Source: an uncultured Clostridia bacterium (lineage in GTDB: Bacteria > Bacillota > Clostridia > UBA1212 > UBA1255). Taken from it: a stretch of DNA of 64,000 bases. Location of the stretch: positions 1,591 to 65,590 of the forward strand of contig CANQOI010000003.1 in assembly GCA_947625435.1 (NCBI GenBank), in the 5' to 3' direction. This document shows, one piece after another, positions 1,927 to 15,114 of this stretch (position 1 is its first letter; the number at the start of each line of letters is the position of its first letter). Below the pieces are notes generated by a model. The model was not told the origin of the DNA and did not search any database. It saw only the letters and a program-made list of their open reading frames with translations. The translations under genes and the position numbers were made by a program.

Positions 1927-2013
1927 TACGATGCTGCGCCCGGCGTGCCTCCCCATGCATTTTCATCATAAAATAATATAAATAATGTATGTGAAATGCA
2001 GGAGGTAAAATGT

Positions 2014-2535
2014 ATGCGCACCACTCGCATCTGTCTTGTTGACAAATTTTTATTGGTCTTTTTGTCGGCACTTTTTATATACACGGCTTTCACACTTTTC
2101 ACGGGTACTATCGTAACGGAGAGCACTAAAACTGTCGACATACTGGTAAGAGCTTCATCGGCATCTATCTTCGGTTATTTTATAAGCAGCAATTTTGTAA
2201 AAAGTCACAGCGACAGCGGCATGGGCAGCCCGGAGGCCGCCGGCACCGATCAGGTTGCCGGCTGCGGCAATGACGGCACGGGCAGCAATGAAGGTACAGG
2301 CGGCACCGGCGCTGCGGAGACAGCAGCGCCTGCGCCGCAGGCGCCCGATCAAGTTAAATGCAATTCTCCGCAGGTGATAATCGTATCGCTGATAGGTCTT
2401 GTATCCATGATACTGATGTTCCTGTCAAACAAATACGCCGATGCCGCGCCGCACGCCGCAGCAACTATCGCGCAGCTCAGAGACTTTGTATCGGCGTGCG
2501 TCGGTTACCTCGTGAGCTGCGGCAAGTCTCACTGA
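2014..2535 (+). CDS. hypothetical membrane protein with Gly/Thr/Ala-rich low-complexity linker
   Basis: The ORF track starts this ORF at 1996, but the ATG at 2014 sits 8 nt after AGGAGG. Two hydrophobic segments flank a GTGGTGAAETAAPAPQAP low-complexity stretch. Confidence 0.4.
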   Translation: MRTTRICLVDKFLLVFLSALFIYTAFTLFTGTIVTESTKTVDILVRASSASIFGYFISSNFVKSHSDSGMGSPEAAGTDQVAGCGNDGTGSNEGTGGTGAAETAAPAPQAPDQVKCNSPQVIIVSLIGLVSMILMFLSNKYADAAPHAAATIAQLRDFVSACVGYLVSCGKSH

Positions 2536-3514: not shown

Positions 3515-4099
3515 ATGTTCGAATGTTTCGATGGGCTGCGCGTCGGGCTCGCCGTAACGGGCTCGTTCTGCACTCATAAAAATATTGCCGCCGTTGCTGA
3601 CAATCTTGTTAAGCGCGGCGCCGTTGTTTTTCCGATACTGTCATATGCCTCCTCTGAAACGTCTACGAGATTCATGTCAAGAGAGGAGCTGTATGATACG
3701 CTCGTGAGCATCACGGGGCACGAGCCCATTTGCACTATAAAGGAAGCGGAGCCTATCGGTCCCAAGAAGCTGCTCGATGTGGTGGCCGTCGTGCCCTGCA
3801 CGGGCAATACTATTTCTAAGCTCGCAAATTCCATTACCGACACGCCTGTTCTTATGGCGTGCAAGTCGCATCTGCGAAATAACAGGCCGATCGTCATTGC
3901 GGTCTCTACCAATGACGGTCTGTCAGGCAATGCCAAAAACATAGGTACGCTGCTGGCCATGAAGAATTTCTTTTTTGTTCCCTTCAGGCAGGACGACAGC
4001 GTTAAGAAGCCTTTTTCTCTCATGGCCGATTTTTCGCTTGTGAACGAGACTATCGCCATGGCTCTCGAGGGCTCCCAGCTGCAGCCTATCCTGCTGTAG
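3515..4099 (+). CDS. dpaB: dipicolinate synthase subunit B (SpoVFB/DpaB, flavoprotein)
   Basis: 194 aa. GLAVTGSFCTH..., PCTGNTISKLANSITDTPVLMACKSHLRNNRPIVIAVSTNDGL, FFVPFRQDD and QLQPIL are near-identical to SpoVFB motifs. Confidence 0.9.
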   Translation: MFECFDGLRVGLAVTGSFCTHKNIAAVADNLVKRGAVVFPILSYASSETSTRFMSREELYDTLVSITGHEPICTIKEAEPIGPKKLLDVVAVVPCTGNTISKLANSITDTPVLMACKSHLRNNRPIVIAVSTNDGLSGNAKNIGTLLAMKNFFFVPFRQDDSVKKPFSLMADFSLVNETIAMALEGSQLQPILL

Positions 4100-4180
4100 G
4101 CTGTCGCCGCAGGCTGTTCTTCTGCGGGCTGTTCCGCTAGGGCTGTTCCGCTGCGGGCAGGGCGGGGTAAAATGCAATAA

Positions 4181-4220
4181 GGCGGCCGCTCACGCGCGCG
4201 GCCGCCCCGGGGTTTATATA
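4181..4220. terminator. GC-rich hairpin between convergent dpaB and glpQ-like genes; likely bidirectional terminator
   Basis: Stem GGCGGCCGC (4181-4189), 8-nt loop, then GCGGCCGCC (4198-4206), followed by CCGGGGTTTATATAATATTTT. It sits between two convergent genes. Confidence 0.5.
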
Positions 4221-4225
4221 ATATT

Positions 4226-4975
4226 TTACTCGTGCATGCCGTTTTTACGCAGCATATCCAGCACTCTGTCGGGAACGTTCGTTATTATTCCGGTTACGCC
4301 GAGCTCCATCGCGCGCTCTATGTCCTGCGGTGCGTCGACTGTCCACACGTTCACGTCTATACCGTTTTCACGGCACTTGTCCACTATTTCTTTATCCATG
4401 CAGTTTATCTCGGGATGTATGATATCCGCCTTATAGCTCCTGACAAATGCCACTGTCTCGTCCGGCGTCATTTTATGCCCGTACAGGAGCGCCGTCCTGA
4501 GATCGGGATGTGCTTCTTTGAGTTCTTTAAGCGACTTGTGGTCAAAGCTCGATATTATGGTGCGCTCCACACATGAATGTTTCACAAGTGAGTCGTACAG
4601 ATGATCAAACGCGAACGGCCTGTCGTCTTTCGGCATGAGCGGCTTTAATTCTATGTTTATCACACGCATGCCGTCCACTATATCGAGGAATTCTTCCAAT
4701 GTGGCTATGTGTGTGCCTTTGTATTTTTCGTCTGTACGTACCCCGAAGTCGTACTGCATGAGCTCTTCGTAGGTCATGTCGCATATCTCGCCCGTACCTG
4801 TCGACATTCTGTTTATATTGCCGTCGTGGCTCAGTACGTATATGTTGTCTTTTGTAAGACGTATATCGTTTTCGACACCGTCGGCTCCCATTTCAACCGC
4901 AAGTCTGAATGACGGCGCAGTGTTTTCCGGCGCGTAAGCCGAAGCGCCTCTGTGCGCCTGTACGTTTATCCTCAT
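4226..4975 (-). CDS. glycerophosphodiester phosphodiesterase (GDPD family)
   Basis: 249 aa. N-terminal HRGASAYAPENTAPSFRLAVEMGADGVENDIRLTKDNIYVLSHD is a typical GDPD/GlpQ-UgpQ signature. Confidence 0.8.
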   Translation of the reverse strand: MRINVQAHRGASAYAPENTAPSFRLAVEMGADGVENDIRLTKDNIYVLSHDGNINRMSTGTGEICDMTYEELMQYDFGVRTDEKYKGTHIATLEEFLDIVDGMRVINIELKPLMPKDDRPFAFDHLYDSLVKHSCVERTIISSFDHKSLKELKEAHPDLRTALLYGHKMTPDETVAFVRSYKADIIHPEINCMDKEIVDKCRENGIDVNVWTVDAPQDIERAMELGVTGIITNVPDRVLDMLRKNGMHE

Positions 4976-5119
4976 TTCAGCTACCTCCCGTTTAGTTCTT
5001 TTATACGGGACGAATTATAGTCTTTAATACTCATATTATCAAGATTTTTATTCCGCACCGGCGGCGGCGATAAATCAGTTATGGATTTATAAACTAAATA
5101 TTGTAAAATTTTTCTGTGA

Positions 5120-5165
5120 TTTTGCCTTTATAATTTGACAATCCGGTTATAATATGATAGGATAG
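5120..5165 (+). promoter_or_regulatory. candidate sigma-A-type promoter region for the ATPase/RloB module
   Basis: TTGACA at 5135-5140 and TATAAT at 5148-5153 cannot both be used because the spacing is wrong. The alternatives are TTGACA-17-TAGGAT, or a weak -35 with TATAAT. A strong RBS (GAGAGGAG) lies 8 nt before the ATG at 5194. Confidence 0.3.
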
Positions 5166-5193
5166 CAATGTAAAAAAGAGAGGAGATCATTAT

Positions 5194-6402
5194 ATGATCT
5201 GTCAATTTTCATTCAGGAATTTTATGTCATATAAAAATGAGGCTGTATTTGATTTCCAGGCAGCAGCTATTCCCGAGTTGTCCGACAGCGTTATTACGGG
5301 GGATAAGATGTCTGATCTTCTCCCGGCCTGCGTGATATACGGCCCAAACGGAGGCGGAAAGTCTAATCTGCTCAAGGCATTTGCCTGCCTTGTTTGTACT
5401 GTTGTAAAGCCCGTTGCAGATCTCGGAAAGACAAGGGAGGCTTTAATATTGCAGCTTGGGGCAGACTGCATTCCGTTTTTGCTCGATGACAATTCGCGGG
5501 ATGAGAGCACCATGTTCCGAGTTTATTTCCGCACTGACGGCAGCGAATACCGGTACAGCTTGGCTATAAATAAAGACGAGATAGTATCCGAATCTCTTTC
5601 ATGGAGAAATATCGGAGGGAAGAAAACAGGCGTTGTCTTTATAAGAAACTTTAGTGACATAGACCTCGGAGCCAGCATTAATAAGACAAGTGTCAACAAA
5701 CAAGTTAACCCCAAGATGCCTTATCTGTCTTTCCTTGCTATCAATTATGATTTTCCGGTCATAGCAGAGGTAATATCATGGTTTGAATCATGTATTATTC
5801 AAAGTTATGCCAATACGCATGTCGACAGCAGGATATTCTTTACAGATGAGAGCAACAAAAAGTCGATCATCCGAGCTTTGAATGATCTGGATATTGATAT
5901 CGCCGATTACAGATTCAGTGATGACAAGAAGCAAATGTATACTGTCAGAACAGTAAATGAAAAATCATATGAACTGCCTTTCGAATACGAATCCGACGGC
6001 ACAAGAAAGCTGCTTACAGCTCTTCCTATCATACTGATCGCACTTCGTTACGGAAGATTTGTTGTTATAGATGAGCTGGATGCCAAACTTCATCCGAAGC
6101 TCCTTCGTTATATAATCAAGCTCTTTCACAACCCCGAGATCAATAAAAACGGAGCCCAGTTGCTTTACACCTCTCACGATCTGACTACCATGAAGAATGA
6201 TCTGTTCCGCAGAGATGAGATATGGTTTGCATGTGAAAATGATTCTCATGAGAGTGAAATATATTCATTATATGATATTCGCGACGAAAATGACAAACAC
6301 GTCAATAATACCGCCGCATACGATAAGCAGTATATAGAAGGAAGATACGGCGCCGATCCTTACCTGCAGAATATTTTAGGAGGCGAATGGAATGAGTCTT
6401 AA
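5194..6402 (+). CDS. ABC-type/AAA_21-like ATPase (RloA/AbiLi-like, OLD-family ATPase-domain-like); candidate anti-phage system ATPase
   Basis: 402 aa. RecF/SMC-like N-terminus (FSFRNFMSYKNEAVFDF), Walker A (GPNGGGKSNLLKA), signature-like ESDGTRKLL, Walker B/D-loop (RFVVIDELDAKLHP) and H-loop (LYTSHD). A 60-mer sampled inside the island gave ~35% GC, against ~52% for one sampled in nifJ. Confidence 0.8.
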   Translation: MICQFSFRNFMSYKNEAVFDFQAAAIPELSDSVITGDKMSDLLPACVIYGPNGGGKSNLLKAFACLVCTVVKPVADLGKTREALILQLGADCIPFLLDDNSRDESTMFRVYFRTDGSEYRYSLAINKDEIVSESLSWRNIGGKKTGVVFIRNFSDIDLGASINKTSVNKQVNPKMPYLSFLAINYDFPVIAEVISWFESCIIQSYANTHVDSRIFFTDESNKKSIIRALNDLDIDIADYRFSDDKKQMYTVRTVNEKSYELPFEYESDGTRKLLTALPIILIALRYGRFVVIDELDAKLHPKLLRYIIKLFHNPEINKNGAQLLYTSHDLTTMKNDLFRRDEIWFACENDSHESEIYSLYDIRDENDKHVNNTAAYDKQYIEGRYGADPYLQNILGGEWNES

Positions 6403-7069
6403 GCCGACTAAAAAAACGGATCTTGGCAAGGACTGGCTTAAAGGCCGTGAGGCGCGGTCAACAAGAGTAAGACTCAATCCCGAATATCATCTTATTGTCA
6501 CTGAAGGAATTGATACAGAGCCGAGATATTTTGAAGCTATAAAAAACGAGATAAATAAGAATTTCAAAGACCGTATCAGCTTCGAAATAATCGGTACGGG
6601 AGATAATACAATCAGTCTTTTCAAAAAAGCTAAGTCCATCGTTGACAAAAGTCCCAATGGATTCAAGCACGTTTGGATCGTATACGATACCGACGACTTT
6701 CCACGGGAAAACATAAATCAAACTTTTGAGTTATGTAAGTCAAGCTCCACCGACGAAACAAAGTATCATGCTTTATGGTCTAATCAATGTATTGAACTCT
6801 GGTTCCTGCTTCACTTTGCCTACTATCATTCGGACATACACAGAACTGAGTATTGGCCGAAATTGACTGAACACCTAAAAAAAATCAATGCCGGAGAGTA
6901 TACAAAGGATCGCGATGATATGTATCTGATTTTGAAGCCGTTTGTTGATACTGCAATAAAAAATGCAAAAAAACTTGCATTTAGAAATCAAGGAAAAACA
7001 CCGGCAGAATCAGCCCCAGGCACTGAGGTATATCAGATCATTGAGATGCTTAAACCGTTTCTAAACTAA
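6392..7069 (+). CDS. RloB-family protein (TOPRIM/OLD-nuclease-like); partner of the ATPase
   Basis: 225 aa. N-terminal HLIVTEGIDTEPRYFEAIK matches the RloB I(V)CEGEKTEPNYF motif. HVWIVYDTDDF and ALWSNQCIELWFLLHF match the RloB WIVFDxDD and NPCFElWlllHf motifs. The start overlaps the ATPase stop by 11 nt, and AGGAGG lies 9 nt upstream. Confidence 0.8.
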   Translation: MSLKPTKKTDLGKDWLKGREARSTRVRLNPEYHLIVTEGIDTEPRYFEAIKNEINKNFKDRISFEIIGTGDNTISLFKKAKSIVDKSPNGFKHVWIVYDTDDFPRENINQTFELCKSSSTDETKYHALWSNQCIELWFLLHFAYYHSDIHRTEYWPKLTEHLKKINAGEYTKDRDDMYLILKPFVDTAIKNAKKLAFRNQGKTPAESAPGTEVYQIIEMLKPFLN

Positions 7070-7087
7070 ATGGATAGGAGATCACAC

Positions 7088-7267
7088 ATGAATGTAACCT
7101 TTGTAAATCCCGGAGTGGATTATATGATTTCGCGGATCATGGAGTCCCAATCCGAAGGTGAGTCCGCATTTTGGTCAGACCCTTTATTTCATTTCTTTCC
7201 TAAACTCGACAAAGCCCATGTCGACAGTCTTCCTTTTTCAACGATCTGCTGTGTAATGTCACTATGA
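7088..7267 (+). CDS. hypothetical small protein (59 aa) in the defence-island operon
   Basis: The ATG at 7088 is preceded by GGAG with a 7-nt spacer. The reading frame is open from the RloB stop. It is AT-rich and I recognise no domain. Confidence 0.3.
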   Translation: MNVTFVNPGVDYMISRIMESQSEGESAFWSDPLFHFFPKLDKAHVDSLPFSTICCVMSL

Positions 7268-7662
7268 ATCCGATCGAACCGCGTTTTCTCAAGGAGCATC
7301 GCTTTGATGTTTTTTATCTGAACAGCGAAAAAGGAGCTATCGGTGAAAGTATACATGAAATCGTGCACTTTATGTGGTTTTATGTATGGAATCAGTTGTT
7401 CGGTGACGATTACGATGAGTACGAGCGACCCTCGCTTAACCGGCTCAGTTCAATCAATCCTTACTTTCCCGGAGAAAACGGAGGATGTATATATCCCTGT
7501 TTCTTTGATATGAAGGTGAACGGTGTGCTGATACCGGATACGCTCAATACCATGTATAAGTCTCAGAGTATTGAAAATTTCATGCGCAACAGTTTTGCTT
7601 ATTGCAAGGAACACGAGACTGAAATCAGAGAGCACATGATCAAATCAAACGGAGCGGTATGA
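7264..7662 (+). CDS. hypothetical 132-aa protein with HExxH motif (possible small metallopeptidase-like protein)
   Basis: An ATGA overlap with the preceding ORF suggests translational coupling. HEIVH falls at residues 31-35 (GESIHEIVHFMWF), and there is a Cys pair (GGCIYPCFF). A terminator hairpin follows. Confidence 0.35.
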   Translation: MNPIEPRFLKEHRFDVFYLNSEKGAIGESIHEIVHFMWFYVWNQLFGDDYDEYERPSLNRLSSINPYFPGENGGCIYPCFFDMKVNGVLIPDTLNTMYKSQSIENFMRNSFAYCKEHETEIREHMIKSNGAV

Positions 7663-7675
7663 TAAATTCCCGTTA

Positions 7676-7709
7676 AGGAACGGCATGACCGAGATCATGC
7701 CGTTCCTTC
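7676..7709. terminator. strong hairpin terminating the island operon (also lies 3' of convergent nifJ)
   Basis: Perfect 14-bp stem AAGGAACGGCATGA / TCATGCCGTTCCTT with a 6-nt loop, followed on the plus strand by TCAGAATTTTATTGATTTTTC. Confidence 0.55.
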
Positions 7710-7736
7710 AGAATTTTATTGATTTTTCTTTACCGT

Positions 7737-10700
7737 TTACGCCTCGTACAGATCTCTCAGCTTGAGCAGATGCTCATACTTAGCCTTGGCGGCATCAGCA
7801 GCCTTGGCAAAGAGCTCCTCTGCCCTCTCCGGGAACGCCTGCTTCAGGCGGCTGTAACGCGTTTCACTCTGTATGAAGTCGATATAGCTCTCCGTAGGAG
7901 CCTTGCAATCGATCGTAAGAGGATTCTTGCCCTCAGCCTTGAGCGCAGGGTTGAAACGGAATGTCTGCCAATATCCGGCGGCAACAGCCTTCTTCATCTC
8001 GGACTGGCAGTTCGTCATGCCGCCCTTGACACCGTGCATTTCACAGGGAGCATATCCTATCACAATGGAAGGACCGTGATAAGCCTCCGCCTCCGTAAGA
8101 GCCTTTATAGTCTGGTTCATATCTGCGCCCATTGCTATCTGAGCCACATAAACGTAACCGTAGGACATGGCGATCTCGGCAAGGTTCTTCTTGCCTATGG
8201 ACTTGCCTGCCGCGGCAAACTGAGCTACCTGACCTATCTGGCTCGCCTTGGACGCCTGTCCGCCGGTATTGGAGTAAACCTCTGTATCAAATACCATCAC
8301 GTTTACATCCTCTCCCGAAGCCAGAACATGGTCGAGTCCGCCGAAGCCTATATCATATGCCCATCCGTCGCCGCCGAATATCCATACGGACTTCTTGGCA
8401 AGATATTCCTTGCTCGCAAGTATCGTCTTGCGCTCCTCACAGTCGCAGTCAAGTGTTTCGAGCTTTGCTATAAGCTTTGCGGCAGGCTCTGCATTCGCCT
8501 TGCCGTCATCCTTTGTATCAAGGAATGCGGTGCAGAGAGCCTTCACTTCATCATCGGAAGTCTTGTCGGCAATACGCTCAACACATGCTATGAGCCTGTC
8601 TCTTATGGCCTTCTGACCTAAGAATATTCCGAGTCCGTGCTCCGCATTGTCCTCAAAGAGGCTGTTGCCCCATGCCGGTCCGCGGCCTGAGTCACGGTTT
8701 ACAGTATAAGGTGTGGCAGGCGCCGAGCCGCCCCATATGGAAGAGCATCCGGTAGCATTTGAAATATACATGCGCTCGCCGAAGAGCTGTGTTATAAGTC
8801 TTGCATATGATGTCTCCGCACAGCCTGCGCAGGAGCCTGAGAATTCAAGCAGCGGCTGGTTGAACTGGCTGCCCTTTACCGAGAAATCGCTGAAGGATGT
8901 GGGCTTCTTCGTGACCGTAGCCACAGTATAATCGAATGCCGCCTGCTGATCCTTCTGAGATTCCTGAGATACCATGCGAAGAGCCTTTTCCTTGGCGGGG
9001 CACACATTTACGCACAGTCCGCATCCCATACAGTCAAGCGGGCTTATCGAAACCGTGAATGTGTATTCCTCGCAGCCCTTGCCCTTCATCTGTACCTTCT
9101 TTGTAGATGCCGGAGCACCGGCTGCCTCCTCCGCGTTCATGACGAACGGACGGATCGTGGCATGCGGGCATACGAAGGAGCACTGGTTACACTGTATACA
9201 ATTCTCGGGTATCCACTCAGGAACGTCCACGGCAACTCCGCGCTTTTCAAATGCGGCGGAGCCCTGCGGGAACGTACCGTCAGCTCTGTCCTTAAATACC
9301 GATACGGGCAGAGAATCGCCCTGCATCATGCCCACGGGCTGAAGTATCTCTTTCACAAATCTGGCAAGCTCCGGAGACTTACTGTTGACATCGCGCTCCT
9401 CTTTTACAACGGGAAGCGTCTTCCATGACTCGGGAACGTCGATCTTAACTATCGCGTCAACGCCCGCGTCTATCGCCTTATAGTTCATTTCAACTACGGC
9501 TTCGCCCTTCTTCATATATGACTTCTTGGCTGCCGCCTTCATATATTCGACCGCCGTATCTATCGGTAAAATGTTAGCGAGCGCGAAGAATGCGGACTGG
9601 AGTATAGTATTCGTCCTCTTGCCCATTCCTATCTCTCTCGCCTTGTCGATAGCATTTACTATATAGAACTTAATGTCGTTTTCCGCGATATATCTCTTGA
9701 CCTCTGCCGGCAGGTGCTTTTCAAGCTCCTCCGGAGTCCACTGACAGTTAAGGAGGAACGTACCGCCCGGCTTAACATCATTTACTATCTTATATCCCTT
9801 GAGCATGTATGACGGATTGTGGCATGCAACGAAGTCGGCCTTTGTTATATAGTACGACGACTTTATGGGCTTATCTCCGAAGCGCAGGTGCGATATAGTA
9901 ACGCCGCCCGTCTTCTTTGAGTCATACTGGAAGTATGCCTGTATGAATTTGTCCGTATGGTCGCCTATTATCTTTATCGAATTCTTGTTCGCGCCCACCG
10001 TTCCGTCTCCGCCGAGACCCCAGAACTTGCAGCTTATTGTGCCTGCGGGAGCCGTATCCGGAGCGGGCTTCTCCGCAAGGGAGTGATGCGTGACATCGTC
10101 CACTATTCCTATGGTGAAATTTCCCTTAGGCTCGTCGGCCTTGAGATTCTCATATACGGCAAATATGCTCGGCGGAGGCGTATCCTTGGAGCCGAGTCCG
10201 TAGCGTCCGCCTACTACCTTGGCATTTACGCCCTTGGAAGCAAGAGCGGCGGCAACATCGAGATAAAGAGGCTCGCCCAAGGAGCCGGGCTCCTTCGTCC
10301 TGTCGAGCACTGCTATCTTCTTAGCTGTTGAAGGTATAGCCTCTATGAGCTTCTCTGCGCTGAAGGGTCTGTAAAGTCTTACCTTAACAAGACCTACCTT
10401 CTCGCCGCGGGCATTCATATAATCTATTACTTCCTCAGCCACATCGCAAATAGAGCCCATGGCAACTATGACCCTGTCGGCATCGGGAGCGCCGTAATAG
10501 TTGAACAGCTTATAATTCGTTCCTATCCTGGCATTTACCTGATTCATATAATCCTCGACCACAGCGGGAAGTGCCTCATAATAGCTGTTGCACGCCTCTC
10601 TGTGCTGGAAGAATATATCTCCGTTCTCTGCGCTGCCTCTTAATACAGGATGCTCGGGATTGAGAGCTCTCTTTCTGAACTCCGCAAGAGCGTCCCTGTC

Positions 10701-13802: not shown

Positions 13803-14054
13803 TCTGTTACAGTTCCAAAGAATTTTCGTCTAACAGAAATTCATACAGACCAAGATGCAGAATGCCTTCATCATCTGTCCAAGGCTTTGCGGGTGTTTTA
13901 GTGATGATGATCTTTTTGAGTCCTTGTTGATCACAAAGTCAATCTCACATTGTTTTTTTGATCGTTTGCCCTCGCGGCTTTCTGAAATTTCAACAACCCC
14001 TACATCGACGGAATACTCGCGACATAAAAGTTCATTGTATATGATGTTCTCCAT
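13803..14054 (-). pseudogene. remnant of a COG1373/DUF4143 AAA+ ATPase gene (C-terminal fragment, frameshifted, 5'-truncated)
   Basis: ORF 13830-14054 encodes MENIIYNELLCREYSVDVGVVEISE...EIDFVINKD, matching the C-terminus of DUF4143 ATPases. The expected ending LKKIIITKTPAKPWTDDEGILHLGLYEFLLDENSLEL* is found in the +1 frame down to 13803. No upstream N-terminal portion is present. Confidence 0.55.
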
Positions 14055-14130: not shown

Positions 14131-15114
14131 ATGAACAACAATAATAAGGCCGTGTATATAATGATGAGAGAAGGTTATTTTTATTTTATTCCCGCTGCGG
14201 GAGAAAACAGAGAGGAAAATAAAGCTCTCGGATATATTTCAATATCGAAAGCGCCCGGCAGATCGGCATATTCAGTTCAATGCAGCCTGAACAGGAATCT
14301 GCTCAAGCCTCGCGGCGTTCCGGAAATATATTTCAGTCCTGCGCCGCATGCCGATTCGCAGTCGATATCAATAGGCAAAGTACGCGCCGTTTCAGGCACA
14401 TCGCGTCTGTTTATAGATTCATACATTTCATATGACGCCGCGGAAGATCTTGACAGCGATATATATGCGGTCGTTTCATGCTCGGGCAGGACTCTATGCT
14501 ACAGCATGATAAATAAAAAAAGTGTTGAGACCGGCCCGGATCCATATGAAGCCCCGATTTCCGCAGCTAAACAAACGAATCCGCACAACGATCTCGGAGG
14601 CAGAGCTTTCGATCCGTTCGGCACAACCAATGACATGTATAAATGGTATATATACGATATTTTCGGCAATAATACGGTCAATAATGTCGATTCTGTCAAA
14701 AATATGCAGCAGATAGATAAGCTTTTCAAACATTATAATATAAATTACAGTGTTTTTGCCCGTCTGAGTGAAGGTATCGAGAACTCCGCATTCCTTAAAA
14801 TGGCGCATTCATCCGTGCAGATTGCCCTGCATCTGTTGAGAGGCGAATACTCGGATGCGCAGACAGGCAGACGATTTACGATCATAGGACTGCCGGGCTG
14901 GAATCCGACATACGGCAGATCTGTAAAACAGCGTGTAAGGCAGCCGCAGATACATCACAGTATATCAGGCGCGTCGGCCATACGCGGATGCTCCAGATGG
15001 ATGTCTGCCGTAAACAGGCCGCGTTTTGCTTATAACAGTAGCTACAACGGCTATTGGCTTTATTACTTCGACTCCGAAAGCGGTCTTCCCGTGAAAGCTG
15101 TTATGAAGGAATGA
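14131..15114 (+). CDS. hypothetical protein (327 aa), no recognisable domain, in an AT-rich patch
   Basis: Long uninterrupted ORF in a sampled ~30% GC region. No RBS is evident and the start is uncertain (14131 or 14161). Confidence 0.4.
   Translation: MNNNNKAVYIMMREGYFYFIPAAGENREENKALGYISISKAPGRSAYSVQCSLNRNLLKPRGVPEIYFSPAPHADSQSISIGKVRAVSGTSRLFIDSYISYDAAEDLDSDIYAVVSCSGRTLCYSMINKKSVETGPDPYEAPISAAKQTNPHNDLGGRAFDPFGTTNDMYKWYIYDIFGNNTVNNVDSVKNMQQIDKLFKHYNINYSVFARLSEGIENSAFLKMAHSSVQIALHLLRGEYSDAQTGRRFTIIGLPGWNPTYGRSVKQRVRQPQIHHSISGASAIRGCSRWMSAVNRPRFAYNSSYNGYWLYYFDSESGLPVKAVMKE

What the first reader, a model, noticed from the sequence alone, without database searches (positions are those of the whole stretch)
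5194..7069. Translationally coupled ABC/AAA_21-type ATPase plus RloB-family protein: split OLD/PARIS/AbiL-like architecture
The 402-aa ATPase has a RecF/SMC-like N-terminus, Walker A (GPNGGGKSN), a signature-like SDGTRKLL, Walker B (VVIDELDAKLHP) and an H-loop (TSHD). The 225-aa partner carries RloB hallmarks (LIVTEGIDTEPRYFE, WIVYDTDDF, SNQCIELWFLLHF). The two genes overlap by 11 nt, and the partner has a strong RBS inside the ATPase 3' end. That implies stoichiometric co-expression. This is the split form of OLD-family nucleases (ATPase plus TOPRIM-like), the class that includes PARIS (AriA/AriB), AbiL (AbiLi/AbiLii) and RloA/RloB pairs. Its function in a Clostridia-like sporeformer is untested. 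The two extra downstream ORFs are not part of the described two-gene systems as far as I know.
Basis: partly seen in the sequence, partly recalled or inferred. Interest (0 to 1): 0.85.

Follow-up and report, generated by a model that had tools for sequence, protein, structure and literature searches.

The report
AbiL-type ATPase plus nuclease defence pair
Two overlapping genes in a small low-GC islet encode an ABC-type ATPase and an RloB (TOPRIM-like) nuclease; this is an ordinary member of the already catalogued AbiL class of phage-defence / toxin-antitoxin modules, and the two ORFs behind it are the wreck of an unrelated metalloprotease gene.

Summary
ORF1 (5194-6402, 402 aa) is an AAA_21 ABC ATPase with all catalytic motifs. 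ORF2 (6392-7069, 225 aa) is an RloB-family protein. They overlap by 11 nt, with AGGAGG 8 nt before the ORF2 start. PADLOC models call them AbiLi (1.5e-79) and AbiLii (5.9e-27). Both align to a lactococcal prophage pair annotated as abortive-infection proteins. In 80/80 genome loci and 72/77 viral contigs the ATPase sits directly upstream of RloB. Neighbours are otherwise unrelated: conjugative-element operons, recombinases, housekeeping genes. A confident model of ORF2 has the TOPRIM layout, with invariant Glu after strand 1 and DxD after strand 3. Its best structural match is PH0156, an AriB-like protein; OLD nuclease also matches. My own profile link to OLD TOPRIM stayed weak. Published work already places AbiL among split ABC-ATPase/TOPRIM systems and showed a clostridial RloB-type pair to be toxin/antitoxin. 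The downstream ORFs are one decayed zincin-like gene, never linked to the pair elsewhere. Verdict: a new member of a known kind.

The parts
5135..5163 (+). Promoter-like site: TTGACA, 17-nt spacer, TG-extended TAGGAT
   Evidence: Consensus scan, 10/12 matches with TG. The number of such sites in the region is no higher than in shuffles, so this is a prediction only.
5180..5185 (+). Shine-Dalgarno GAGGAG, 8 nt before the ORF1 ATG
   Evidence: Read from the sequence.
5194..6402 (+). ORF1: AbiLi-type ABC ATPase (402 aa). Walker A G50-N58 (K56), signature-like S267-D-G-T-R-K, Walker B/D-loop V290-P301 (D293 E294 D296), H-loop H328.
   Evidence: Pfam AAA_21 2.6e-29. PADLOC AbiLi 1.5e-79. Motifs essentially invariant in 75 aligned homologs.
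6378..6383 (+). Shine-Dalgarno AGGAGG for ORF2, inside the 3' end of ORF1
   Evidence: Read from the sequence. An SD-like motif precedes the RloB start in 68/80 homologous loci.
6392..7069 (+). ORF2: RloB / AbiLii-type TOPRIM-like putative nuclease (225 aa). Candidate metal-binding residues are E38, E43, D99, D101, E135; G68 follows strand 2; K172 is invariant.
7088..7267 (+). ORF3 (59 aa): N-terminal remnant of a zincin-like gene. Not part of the defence pair.
   Evidence: Matches the N-terminus of the longer homologs P0033 and P0048. No homolog beside the pair in 80 genome and 77 viral loci.
7264..7662 (+). ORF4 (132 aa): C-terminal remnant of the same zincin-like gene. It keeps HEIVH and EYE but lacks about 15 residues (KWILSEMVVESVMKDE). 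Not part of the pair.
7675..7708 (.). Perfect 14-bp hairpin followed by a T-rich tract. Probable bidirectional terminator closing the islet transcript and the convergent PFOR gene.
   Evidence: Inverted repeat I5. RNA fold -25.1 kcal/mol, z -6.2 against shuffles.

Best explanation
A self-contained two-gene AbiL-family module carried on a ~2.7-kb low-GC islet in the chromosome of an uncultured Clostridia bacterium. Shown here: ORF1 is an ABC (AAA_21) ATPase with intact nucleotide-binding motifs. ORF2 is an RloB-family protein whose predicted fold and invariant acidic residues fit a TOPRIM two-metal nuclease. The two genes are always adjacent and tightly coupled, and the pair moves between unrelated genomic contexts, including conjugative elements, plasmids and phages. 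Inferred from PARIS, P2 Old and the NetFlax toxin/antitoxin tests: the ATPase oligomer holds the RloB nuclease inactive and acts as sensor and antitoxin. A phage or other mobile-element cue changes the ATPase state and frees or activates the nuclease. The nuclease then cuts nucleic acid and stops growth before the invader replicates (abortive infection). The substrate is most likely tRNA or another RNA, by analogy with AriB and Old, but DNA is possible. The same toxin/antitoxin logic would also stabilise the elements that carry the pair. The downstream ORFs are a decayed neighbour gene, not components.
Confidence: 0.72

Rival explanations
1. The pair is mainly an addiction (post-segregational killing) toxin-antitoxin module that stabilises mobile elements. 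Any anti-phage effect is secondary or absent.
For: Close homologs sit inside conjugative T4SS operons and beside recombinases. Homologs occur on very small plasmids, e.g. the 3.8-kb pCAQ10.10. The RloB-type:AAA pair behaved as toxin/antitoxin in E. coli; in that paper the phage screen that gave no hits concerned another AAA-neutralised pair (the text points to Acinetobacter phages), and no phage test of the RloB-type pair appears in the passages I read (PMC10440598).
Against: The window copy, and many of the 80 loci, are chromosomal islets among housekeeping genes, with nothing obvious to stabilise. Lactococcal AbiL was defined by an anti-phage phenotype (PMC13064643). The two roles are not exclusive.
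Confidence: 0.15
2. A four-gene system in which ORF3 and ORF4 are accessory components of the ATPase-RloB pair.
For: All four ORFs share the low-GC islet. There is no terminator between ORF2 and ORF3. ORF3 and ORF4 overlap by 4 nt, and one hairpin closes the set. The same four ORFs recur on two other contigs of the same organism.
Against: ORF3 and ORF4 together equal one gene that is contiguous in homologs. The window copy has lost about 55 residues with a frame change, plus about 15 more residues. None of 80 genome loci or 77 viral loci has this family next to the pair. Conversely, four genomic contexts of the family lack the pair.
Confidence: 0.03
3. A restriction-modification accessory (RloA/RloB, 'R-linked ORFs') working with a type I R-M system.
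For: RloB was named from ORFs in Campylobacter hsd loci (PMC10440598). Two of 148 neighbouring ORFs of homologs carry HsdM/N6_Mtase domains. One plasmid homolog of the ATPase is annotated RloA.
Against: There are no hsd genes next to the window pair; the flanks are GDPD and PFOR. R-M neighbours are rare (2/148).
Confidence: 0.03
4. A housekeeping DNA-repair pair: a RecF/SMC-like ATPase with a RecR-like Toprim protein.
For: Weak SMC_N, AAA_23 and RecF-type N-terminal similarity. RecR is also a Toprim protein (PMC6755086).
Against: All repair-family NCBIfam scores are far below their cut-offs. The distribution is patchy, the GC atypical and the context variable or mobile. Close relatives of the host lack the arrangement.
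Confidence: 0.02

Closest known systems
AbiL (AbiLi/AbiLii) of Lactococcus lactis, as modelled in PADLOC and seen in prophage proPhi7 ORF55/56
   Same: Two co-oriented, tightly packed genes, with the AAA_21 ABC ATPase first and the RloB-domain protein second. Both window proteins hit the AbiLi/AbiLii models about as well as the lactococcal pair does. Catalytic motifs align.
   Different: Only 27% and 32% identity. The host is a gut Clostridia MAG. The copy is a chromosomal islet rather than on a dairy plasmid or prophage. The original pND861 prototype was not available for direct comparison, and no phenotype is known.
PARIS (AriA/AriB)
   Same: A split ABC ATPase plus a separate TOPRIM-type effector. 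The best structural match of ORF2 (PH0156/2P62) is also the best HHpred match of lactococcal AriB. It is the likely template for the mechanism: sequestration, trigger-induced release, tRNA cleavage.
   Different: ORF2 is RloB (PF13707), not DUF4435, and matches no AriB model. ORF1 scores far better on AbiLi than on the AriA models, and the best AriA hit spans the same residues (47-332) and a profile of the same length (304) as Pfam AAA_21, so it looks like a generic AAA_21-type match. ORF2 is smaller (225 aa against a ~35 kDa AriB).
OLD-family nucleases (P2 Old, Ts OLD, Bp OLD) and Gabija GajA
   Different: There the domains are fused in one polypeptide. Here they are two proteins, and sequence-profile similarity is marginal.
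NetFlax TOPRIM_OLD(D44):AAA(D29) pair of Clostridium algidicarnis
   Same: An RloB-node toxin neutralised by an AAA ATPase antitoxin, from a Clostridium, with the same two-gene architecture (PMC10440598).
   Different: It was tested only for toxicity/neutralisation in E. coli.
RloA/RloB of Campylobacter type I R-M loci
   Same: The RloB domain paired with an ATPase.
   Different: There is no R-M context in the window.

Membership tests
AbiL (PADLOC / DefenseFinder sense) | Two adjacent, co-oriented genes with the ATPase upstream of the RloB-type gene | tested here: met
   5194-6402 and 6392-7069 overlap by 11 nt. The same order holds in 80/80 genome loci and 72/77 viral loci.
AbiL (PADLOC / DefenseFinder sense) | First protein matches the AbiLi ABC-ATPase model | tested here: met
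   PDLC02335 AbiLi 1.5e-79 over residues 1-395; Pfam AAA_21 2.6e-29.
AbiL (PADLOC / DefenseFinder sense) | Second protein matches the AbiLii / RloB model | tested here: met
   PDLC02337 AbiLii 5.9e-27; Pfam RloB 3.7e-40, above the 31.5-bit cut-off.
AbiL (PADLOC / DefenseFinder sense) | Pairwise homology of both proteins to a lactococcal AbiL-type pair | tested here: met
   Against proPhi7 ORF55/56: E 5e-27 (27%) and E 9e-15 (32%). That pair is annotated, not itself tested. The pND861 prototype was not available.
AbiL (PADLOC / DefenseFinder sense) | Abortive-infection phenotype requiring both genes | not testable with these tools
   Needs phage challenge in a suitable host.
Toprim / OLD-type nuclease fold (ORF2) | Four-stranded parallel sheet flanked by helices (b1-a1-b2-a2-b3-a3-b4) | tested here: met
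   AF2 model pLDDT 89.1, pTM 0.80: strands 31-37, 62-68, 91-99, 124-130 with intervening helices. This is a prediction, not a solved structure.
Toprim / OLD-type nuclease fold (ORF2) | Invariant Glu by strand 1, Gly after strand 2, DxD by strand 3 (definition in PMC6755086) | tested here: met
   E38 is at least 90% conserved and E43 invariant. G68 is invariant in the close set. D99 and D101 are invariant in 94 diverse sequences, and they sit at the strand ends of the model.
Toprim / OLD-type nuclease fold (ORF2) | Significant sequence-profile similarity to a recognised Toprim family | tested here: inconclusive
   hhalign against the P2-Old TOPRIM alignment: P 0.0021, probability 13%, 39 columns. 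Against the single sequence: E 0.27. One of 94 members hits OLD-like_TOPRIM at 0.0032 and one hits Toprim_3 at 0.018, amid noise. Published HHpred reports the link (PMC10440598).
Toprim / OLD-type nuclease fold (ORF2) | Structural match to solved Toprim nucleases above background | tested here: inconclusive
Toprim / OLD-type nuclease fold (ORF2) | Metal-dependent nuclease activity | not testable with these tools
   Requires biochemistry.
PARIS (AriA/AriB) | Effector carries DUF4435 (AriB) | tested here: not met
   Pfam finds only RloB, and no AriB model appears in the PADLOC output.
PARIS (AriA/AriB) | ATPase best matched by AriA models | tested here: not met
   AbiLi scores 265 bits; the best AriA model scores 118 bits, over the same residues (47-332) and with the same profile length (304) as the Pfam AAA_21 match.
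RloA/RloB of type I R-M loci | Embedded in an hsd (type I R-M) locus | tested here: not met
   The flanks are GDPD and PFOR. Only 2 of 148 neighbours of homologs carry HsdM domains.

The most novel reading that the evidence does not exclude
The gut-Clostridia RloB subfamily may be mechanistically distinct from PARIS and Old, with a different substrate or activation route. Its repeated placement inside conjugative transfer operons (between TrbL and PrgI/VirB4) may reflect a role in conflicts between mobile elements, such as ICE-borne exclusion of incoming plasmids or phages or ICE addiction, rather than classical phage abortive infection.
Probability: 0.12. Interest if true: 0.5.

Novelty: new member of a known kind. 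Interest (0 to 1): 0.22.

Why it matters
On its own this matters little: standard defence-system annotators would label the locus AbiL. Its modest value is as material. AbiL/RloB-type systems are widespread: 3,464 clusters at 50% identity, at least 517 species genomes for this subfamily, plus plasmids, ICEs and some phages. Yet they have no biochemical or structural characterisation. This subfamily is compact (402 + 225 aa), strongly conserved and abundant in gut Clostridia. It could serve to test whether the 'ATPase sequesters a TOPRIM tRNase' logic of PARIS and Old extends to RloB effectors.

Tried and rejected
(1) Four-gene cassette: rejected. ORF3 and ORF4 are one decayed gene and never accompany the pair.
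(2) Programmed frameshift between ORF3 and ORF4: rejected. Intact homologs carry about 55 extra residues at the junction, so the window copy has a deletion, not a slippery site.
(3) The Pfam label 'putative AbiEii toxin, type IV TA' for AAA_21: ignored as a family-name artefact. ORF1 is a complete ABC ATPase.
(4) PARIS membership: rejected, because there is no DUF4435 match.
(5) Sequence search of ORF1, ORF2 and the RloB profile against PDB chains: nothing useful.
(6) Foldseek of the ORF2 model against the PDB: only generic alpha/beta hits.
(7) Building a diverse OLD-TOPRIM profile failed. The homolog search with the P2 Old C-terminal region returned 5 near-identical fragments. Viral contigs gave only relatives at 68% identity or more. 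Plasmids gave none. No OLD-like protein was found in 1.8 Mb of fetched DNA.
(8) Empty-site reconstruction failed. Relatives with 75% GDPD or at least 90% DpaB keep the DpaA-DpaB side but have other genes where the islet and PFOR lie.
(9) Rfam scan of 4000-8500: only a sub-threshold Gut-1 hit inside ORF1.
(10) No flanking direct or inverted repeats suggest a transposon or integration site.

Full report
OBSERVATION. The window holds ORF1 at 5194-6402 (+, 402 aa) and ORF2 at 6392-7069 (+, 225 aa), overlapping by 11 nt. Pfam gives AAA_21 (2.6e-29, residues 47-332, with weaker AAA_15, SMC_N and AAA_23) for ORF1 and RloB (3.7e-40, residues 34-220) for ORF2. A GAGGAG lies 8 nt before the ORF1 ATG, and an AGGAGG (6378-6383) lies 8 nt before the ORF2 ATG, inside the ORF1 3' end. 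A sigma-70-like TTGACA-17-TG-TAGGAT site sits at 5135-5163, but such sites are no more frequent here than in shuffles, so it is only a prediction. A perfect 14-bp hairpin at 7675-7708 (-25.1 kcal/mol, z -6.2) followed by a T-rich tract closes the region opposite the convergent PFOR gene. The stretch from about 5000 to 7700 has GC near 0.40, against 0.50-0.53 on both sides. The flanks are housekeeping: NusG-like, DpaA, DpaB and GDPD on the left; PFOR, split transketolase and RpiB on the right. The source is an uncultured Clostridia MAG. The same four ORFs recur on two other metagenome contigs.

WHAT THE PAIR IS. PADLOC models assign ORF1 to AbiLi (1.5e-79, residues 1-395) and ORF2 to AbiLii (5.9e-27). 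The AriA hit for ORF1 is much weaker and spans the same residues (47-332) and the same profile length (304) as the Pfam AAA_21 match, and no AriB, GajA or Old effector model matches ORF2. NCBIfam has no specific model; all its hits lie far below their cut-offs. A Lactococcus prophage (proPhi7) carries two genes annotated 'abortive phage resistance protein' after its lysin gene. They hit the same two PADLOC models (4.4e-76, 4.7e-18). They align to ORF1 over its full length (27%, E 5e-27) and to ORF2 over residues 23-164 (32%, E 9e-15), with TEGI-TE, the DxD and SN--IE-W-LLHF in register. So the pair is a divergent member of the AbiL family.

THE PAIR IS A SELF-CONTAINED MOBILE MODULE. Most are gut Clostridia (Lachnospiraceae, Oscillospiraceae and others); the best 80 share 54-69% identity. 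In all 80 the ATPase homolog lies directly upstream on the same strand. The junction ranges from a 2-nt gap to a 20-nt overlap: 59 loci overlap by 4 nt, 8 by 1 nt, 11 have a 2-nt gap and 2 overlap by 20 nt. An SD-like motif precedes the RloB start in 68 of 80. The 326 flanking ORFs fall into 284 clusters, so there is no conserved third gene. Pfam domains of 148 immediate neighbours are a mixture: HTH regulators (5), serine recombinases (4), MatE (4), HsdM (2), Tn916-type integrase (2) and many housekeeping enzymes. Close homologs (67-74% identity) are inserted between TrbL and PrgI/VirB4 in conjugative-transfer operons on three contigs, and next to three serine recombinase genes on another. 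ATPase homologs lie on 186 plasmids, including 3.8-5.2-kb ones, and RloB homologs on 15 plasmids. RloB relatives occur in 3 of 50,697 phage records and on 77 of 2.9 million viral contigs. The ATPase is adjacent upstream in 72 of those 77; three of the other five matches begin at or near the locus start and two are partial RloB matches. The representative library holds 3,464 RloB clusters at E <= 0.001. This is the distribution of an accessory defence or addiction module, not of a housekeeping pair.

THE ATPASE. Walker A (G50-N58, K56), the signature-like ESDGTRK (266-272), Walker B and D-loop (VVIDELDAKLHP, 290-301) and the H-loop (TSHD, 326-329) are essentially invariant in 75 aligned homologs. 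So are a C-terminal RRDEIWF / GRYGADPY region and an LSFLA segment. It therefore looks catalytically competent.

MECHANISM (INFERRED). PARIS AriA sequesters AriB until a phage protein triggers release, and AriB then nicks tRNAs (PMC11464382, PMC12409363). P2 Old is held inactive as a tetramer and becomes a tRNase when destabilised (bioRxiv 10.64898/2026.07.10.737580). A Clostridium algidicarnis RloB-node protein is toxic in E. coli and is neutralised by its AAA partner (PMC10440598). The most likely reading is that ORF1 is the sensor/antitoxin and ORF2 the nuclease toxin of an abortive-infection module. The order 'antitoxin first' and the tight coupling would keep ORF2 from being made without ORF1. 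Substrate, trigger and stoichiometry are unknown. I put about 0.9 on AbiL-family membership, about 0.7 on a defence/TA role of this kind, and about 0.3 on tRNA as the target.

NOVELTY AND VERDICT. The architecture, its assignment to the ABC-ATPase/TOPRIM class and its toxin/antitoxin behaviour are all published, and annotators would label this locus AbiL. The window copy is a new, divergent but ordinary member. Its suggestion of a possible four-gene unit, and its interest score of 0.85, are not.

Noticed in passing
window 7088-7662; also L003 6001-6642, L004 about 5560-6483, L005 5853-6450: An uncurated zincin-like (HEIIH...EYE) protein family with no Pfam match appears independently damaged in several unrelated genomes. 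The window copy has a ~55-residue deletion with a frame change plus a ~15-residue loss. L005-L008 show a similar N/C split (67 + 149 aa). L004 has an in-frame stop in the N-terminal part. Catenibacillus scindens P0048 has lost ~45 residues near the C-terminus, and P0033 has lost the HEIIH segment. Intact N-terminal halves exist on short contigs. I do not know why this gene decays so often.
   Followed up: partly
L009 4803-6681; L011 4803-6675; L012 4040-5912: Close homologs of the pair (67-68% identity) are inserted inside conjugative-transfer operons, between a TrbL_2 gene and PrgI/VirB4. This is an unusual place for cargo genes.
   Followed up: partly
L186 (Edwardsiella piscicida pCAQ10.10, 3782 bp); hits H22, H23, H40-H45: Very small plasmids (3.8-5.2 kb) in Edwardsiella, Enterobacter, Klebsiella and E. 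coli carry ATPase homologs at 26-29% identity. At least the Edwardsiella plasmid also carries RloB (31.6% identity to ORF2), with little else annotated besides Rop. That would fit an addiction role.
   Followed up: no
window 4100-7736, compared with L188-L191 and L093/L094: The islet lies at a synteny breakpoint. Relatives with at least 90% identical DpaB have DpaA-DpaB-GATase(C26)-GDPD-HAD hydrolase. The window lacks the GATase gene and has the islet and PFOR after GDPD.
   Followed up: partly
L200-L255 (many IMG/VR contigs of 35-110 kb): About 40 viral contigs give the same tblastn result for the RloB gene (30% identity to ORF2, E 9e-24), each with the ATPase upstream. This suggests one widespread phage or prophage lineage that carries an AbiL-type pair.
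   Followed up: no
window 6213-6283 (+): A sub-threshold Rfam match to Gut-1 RNA (27.4 bits against a gathering score of 50, E 0.026) lies inside the ATPase coding region. It is probably chance.
   Followed up: no
window 4126-4152: An exact tandem duplication of a 13-nt unit (GGGCTGTTCCGCT, 14-nt spacing) lies in the short spacer between the convergent DpaB and GDPD genes.
   Followed up: no
window 14131-15114 (+) and 1996-2535 (+): Two sizeable ORFs (327 aa and 179 aa) have no Pfam match. A 74-aa ORF at 13830-14054 (-) also has none.
   Followed up: no
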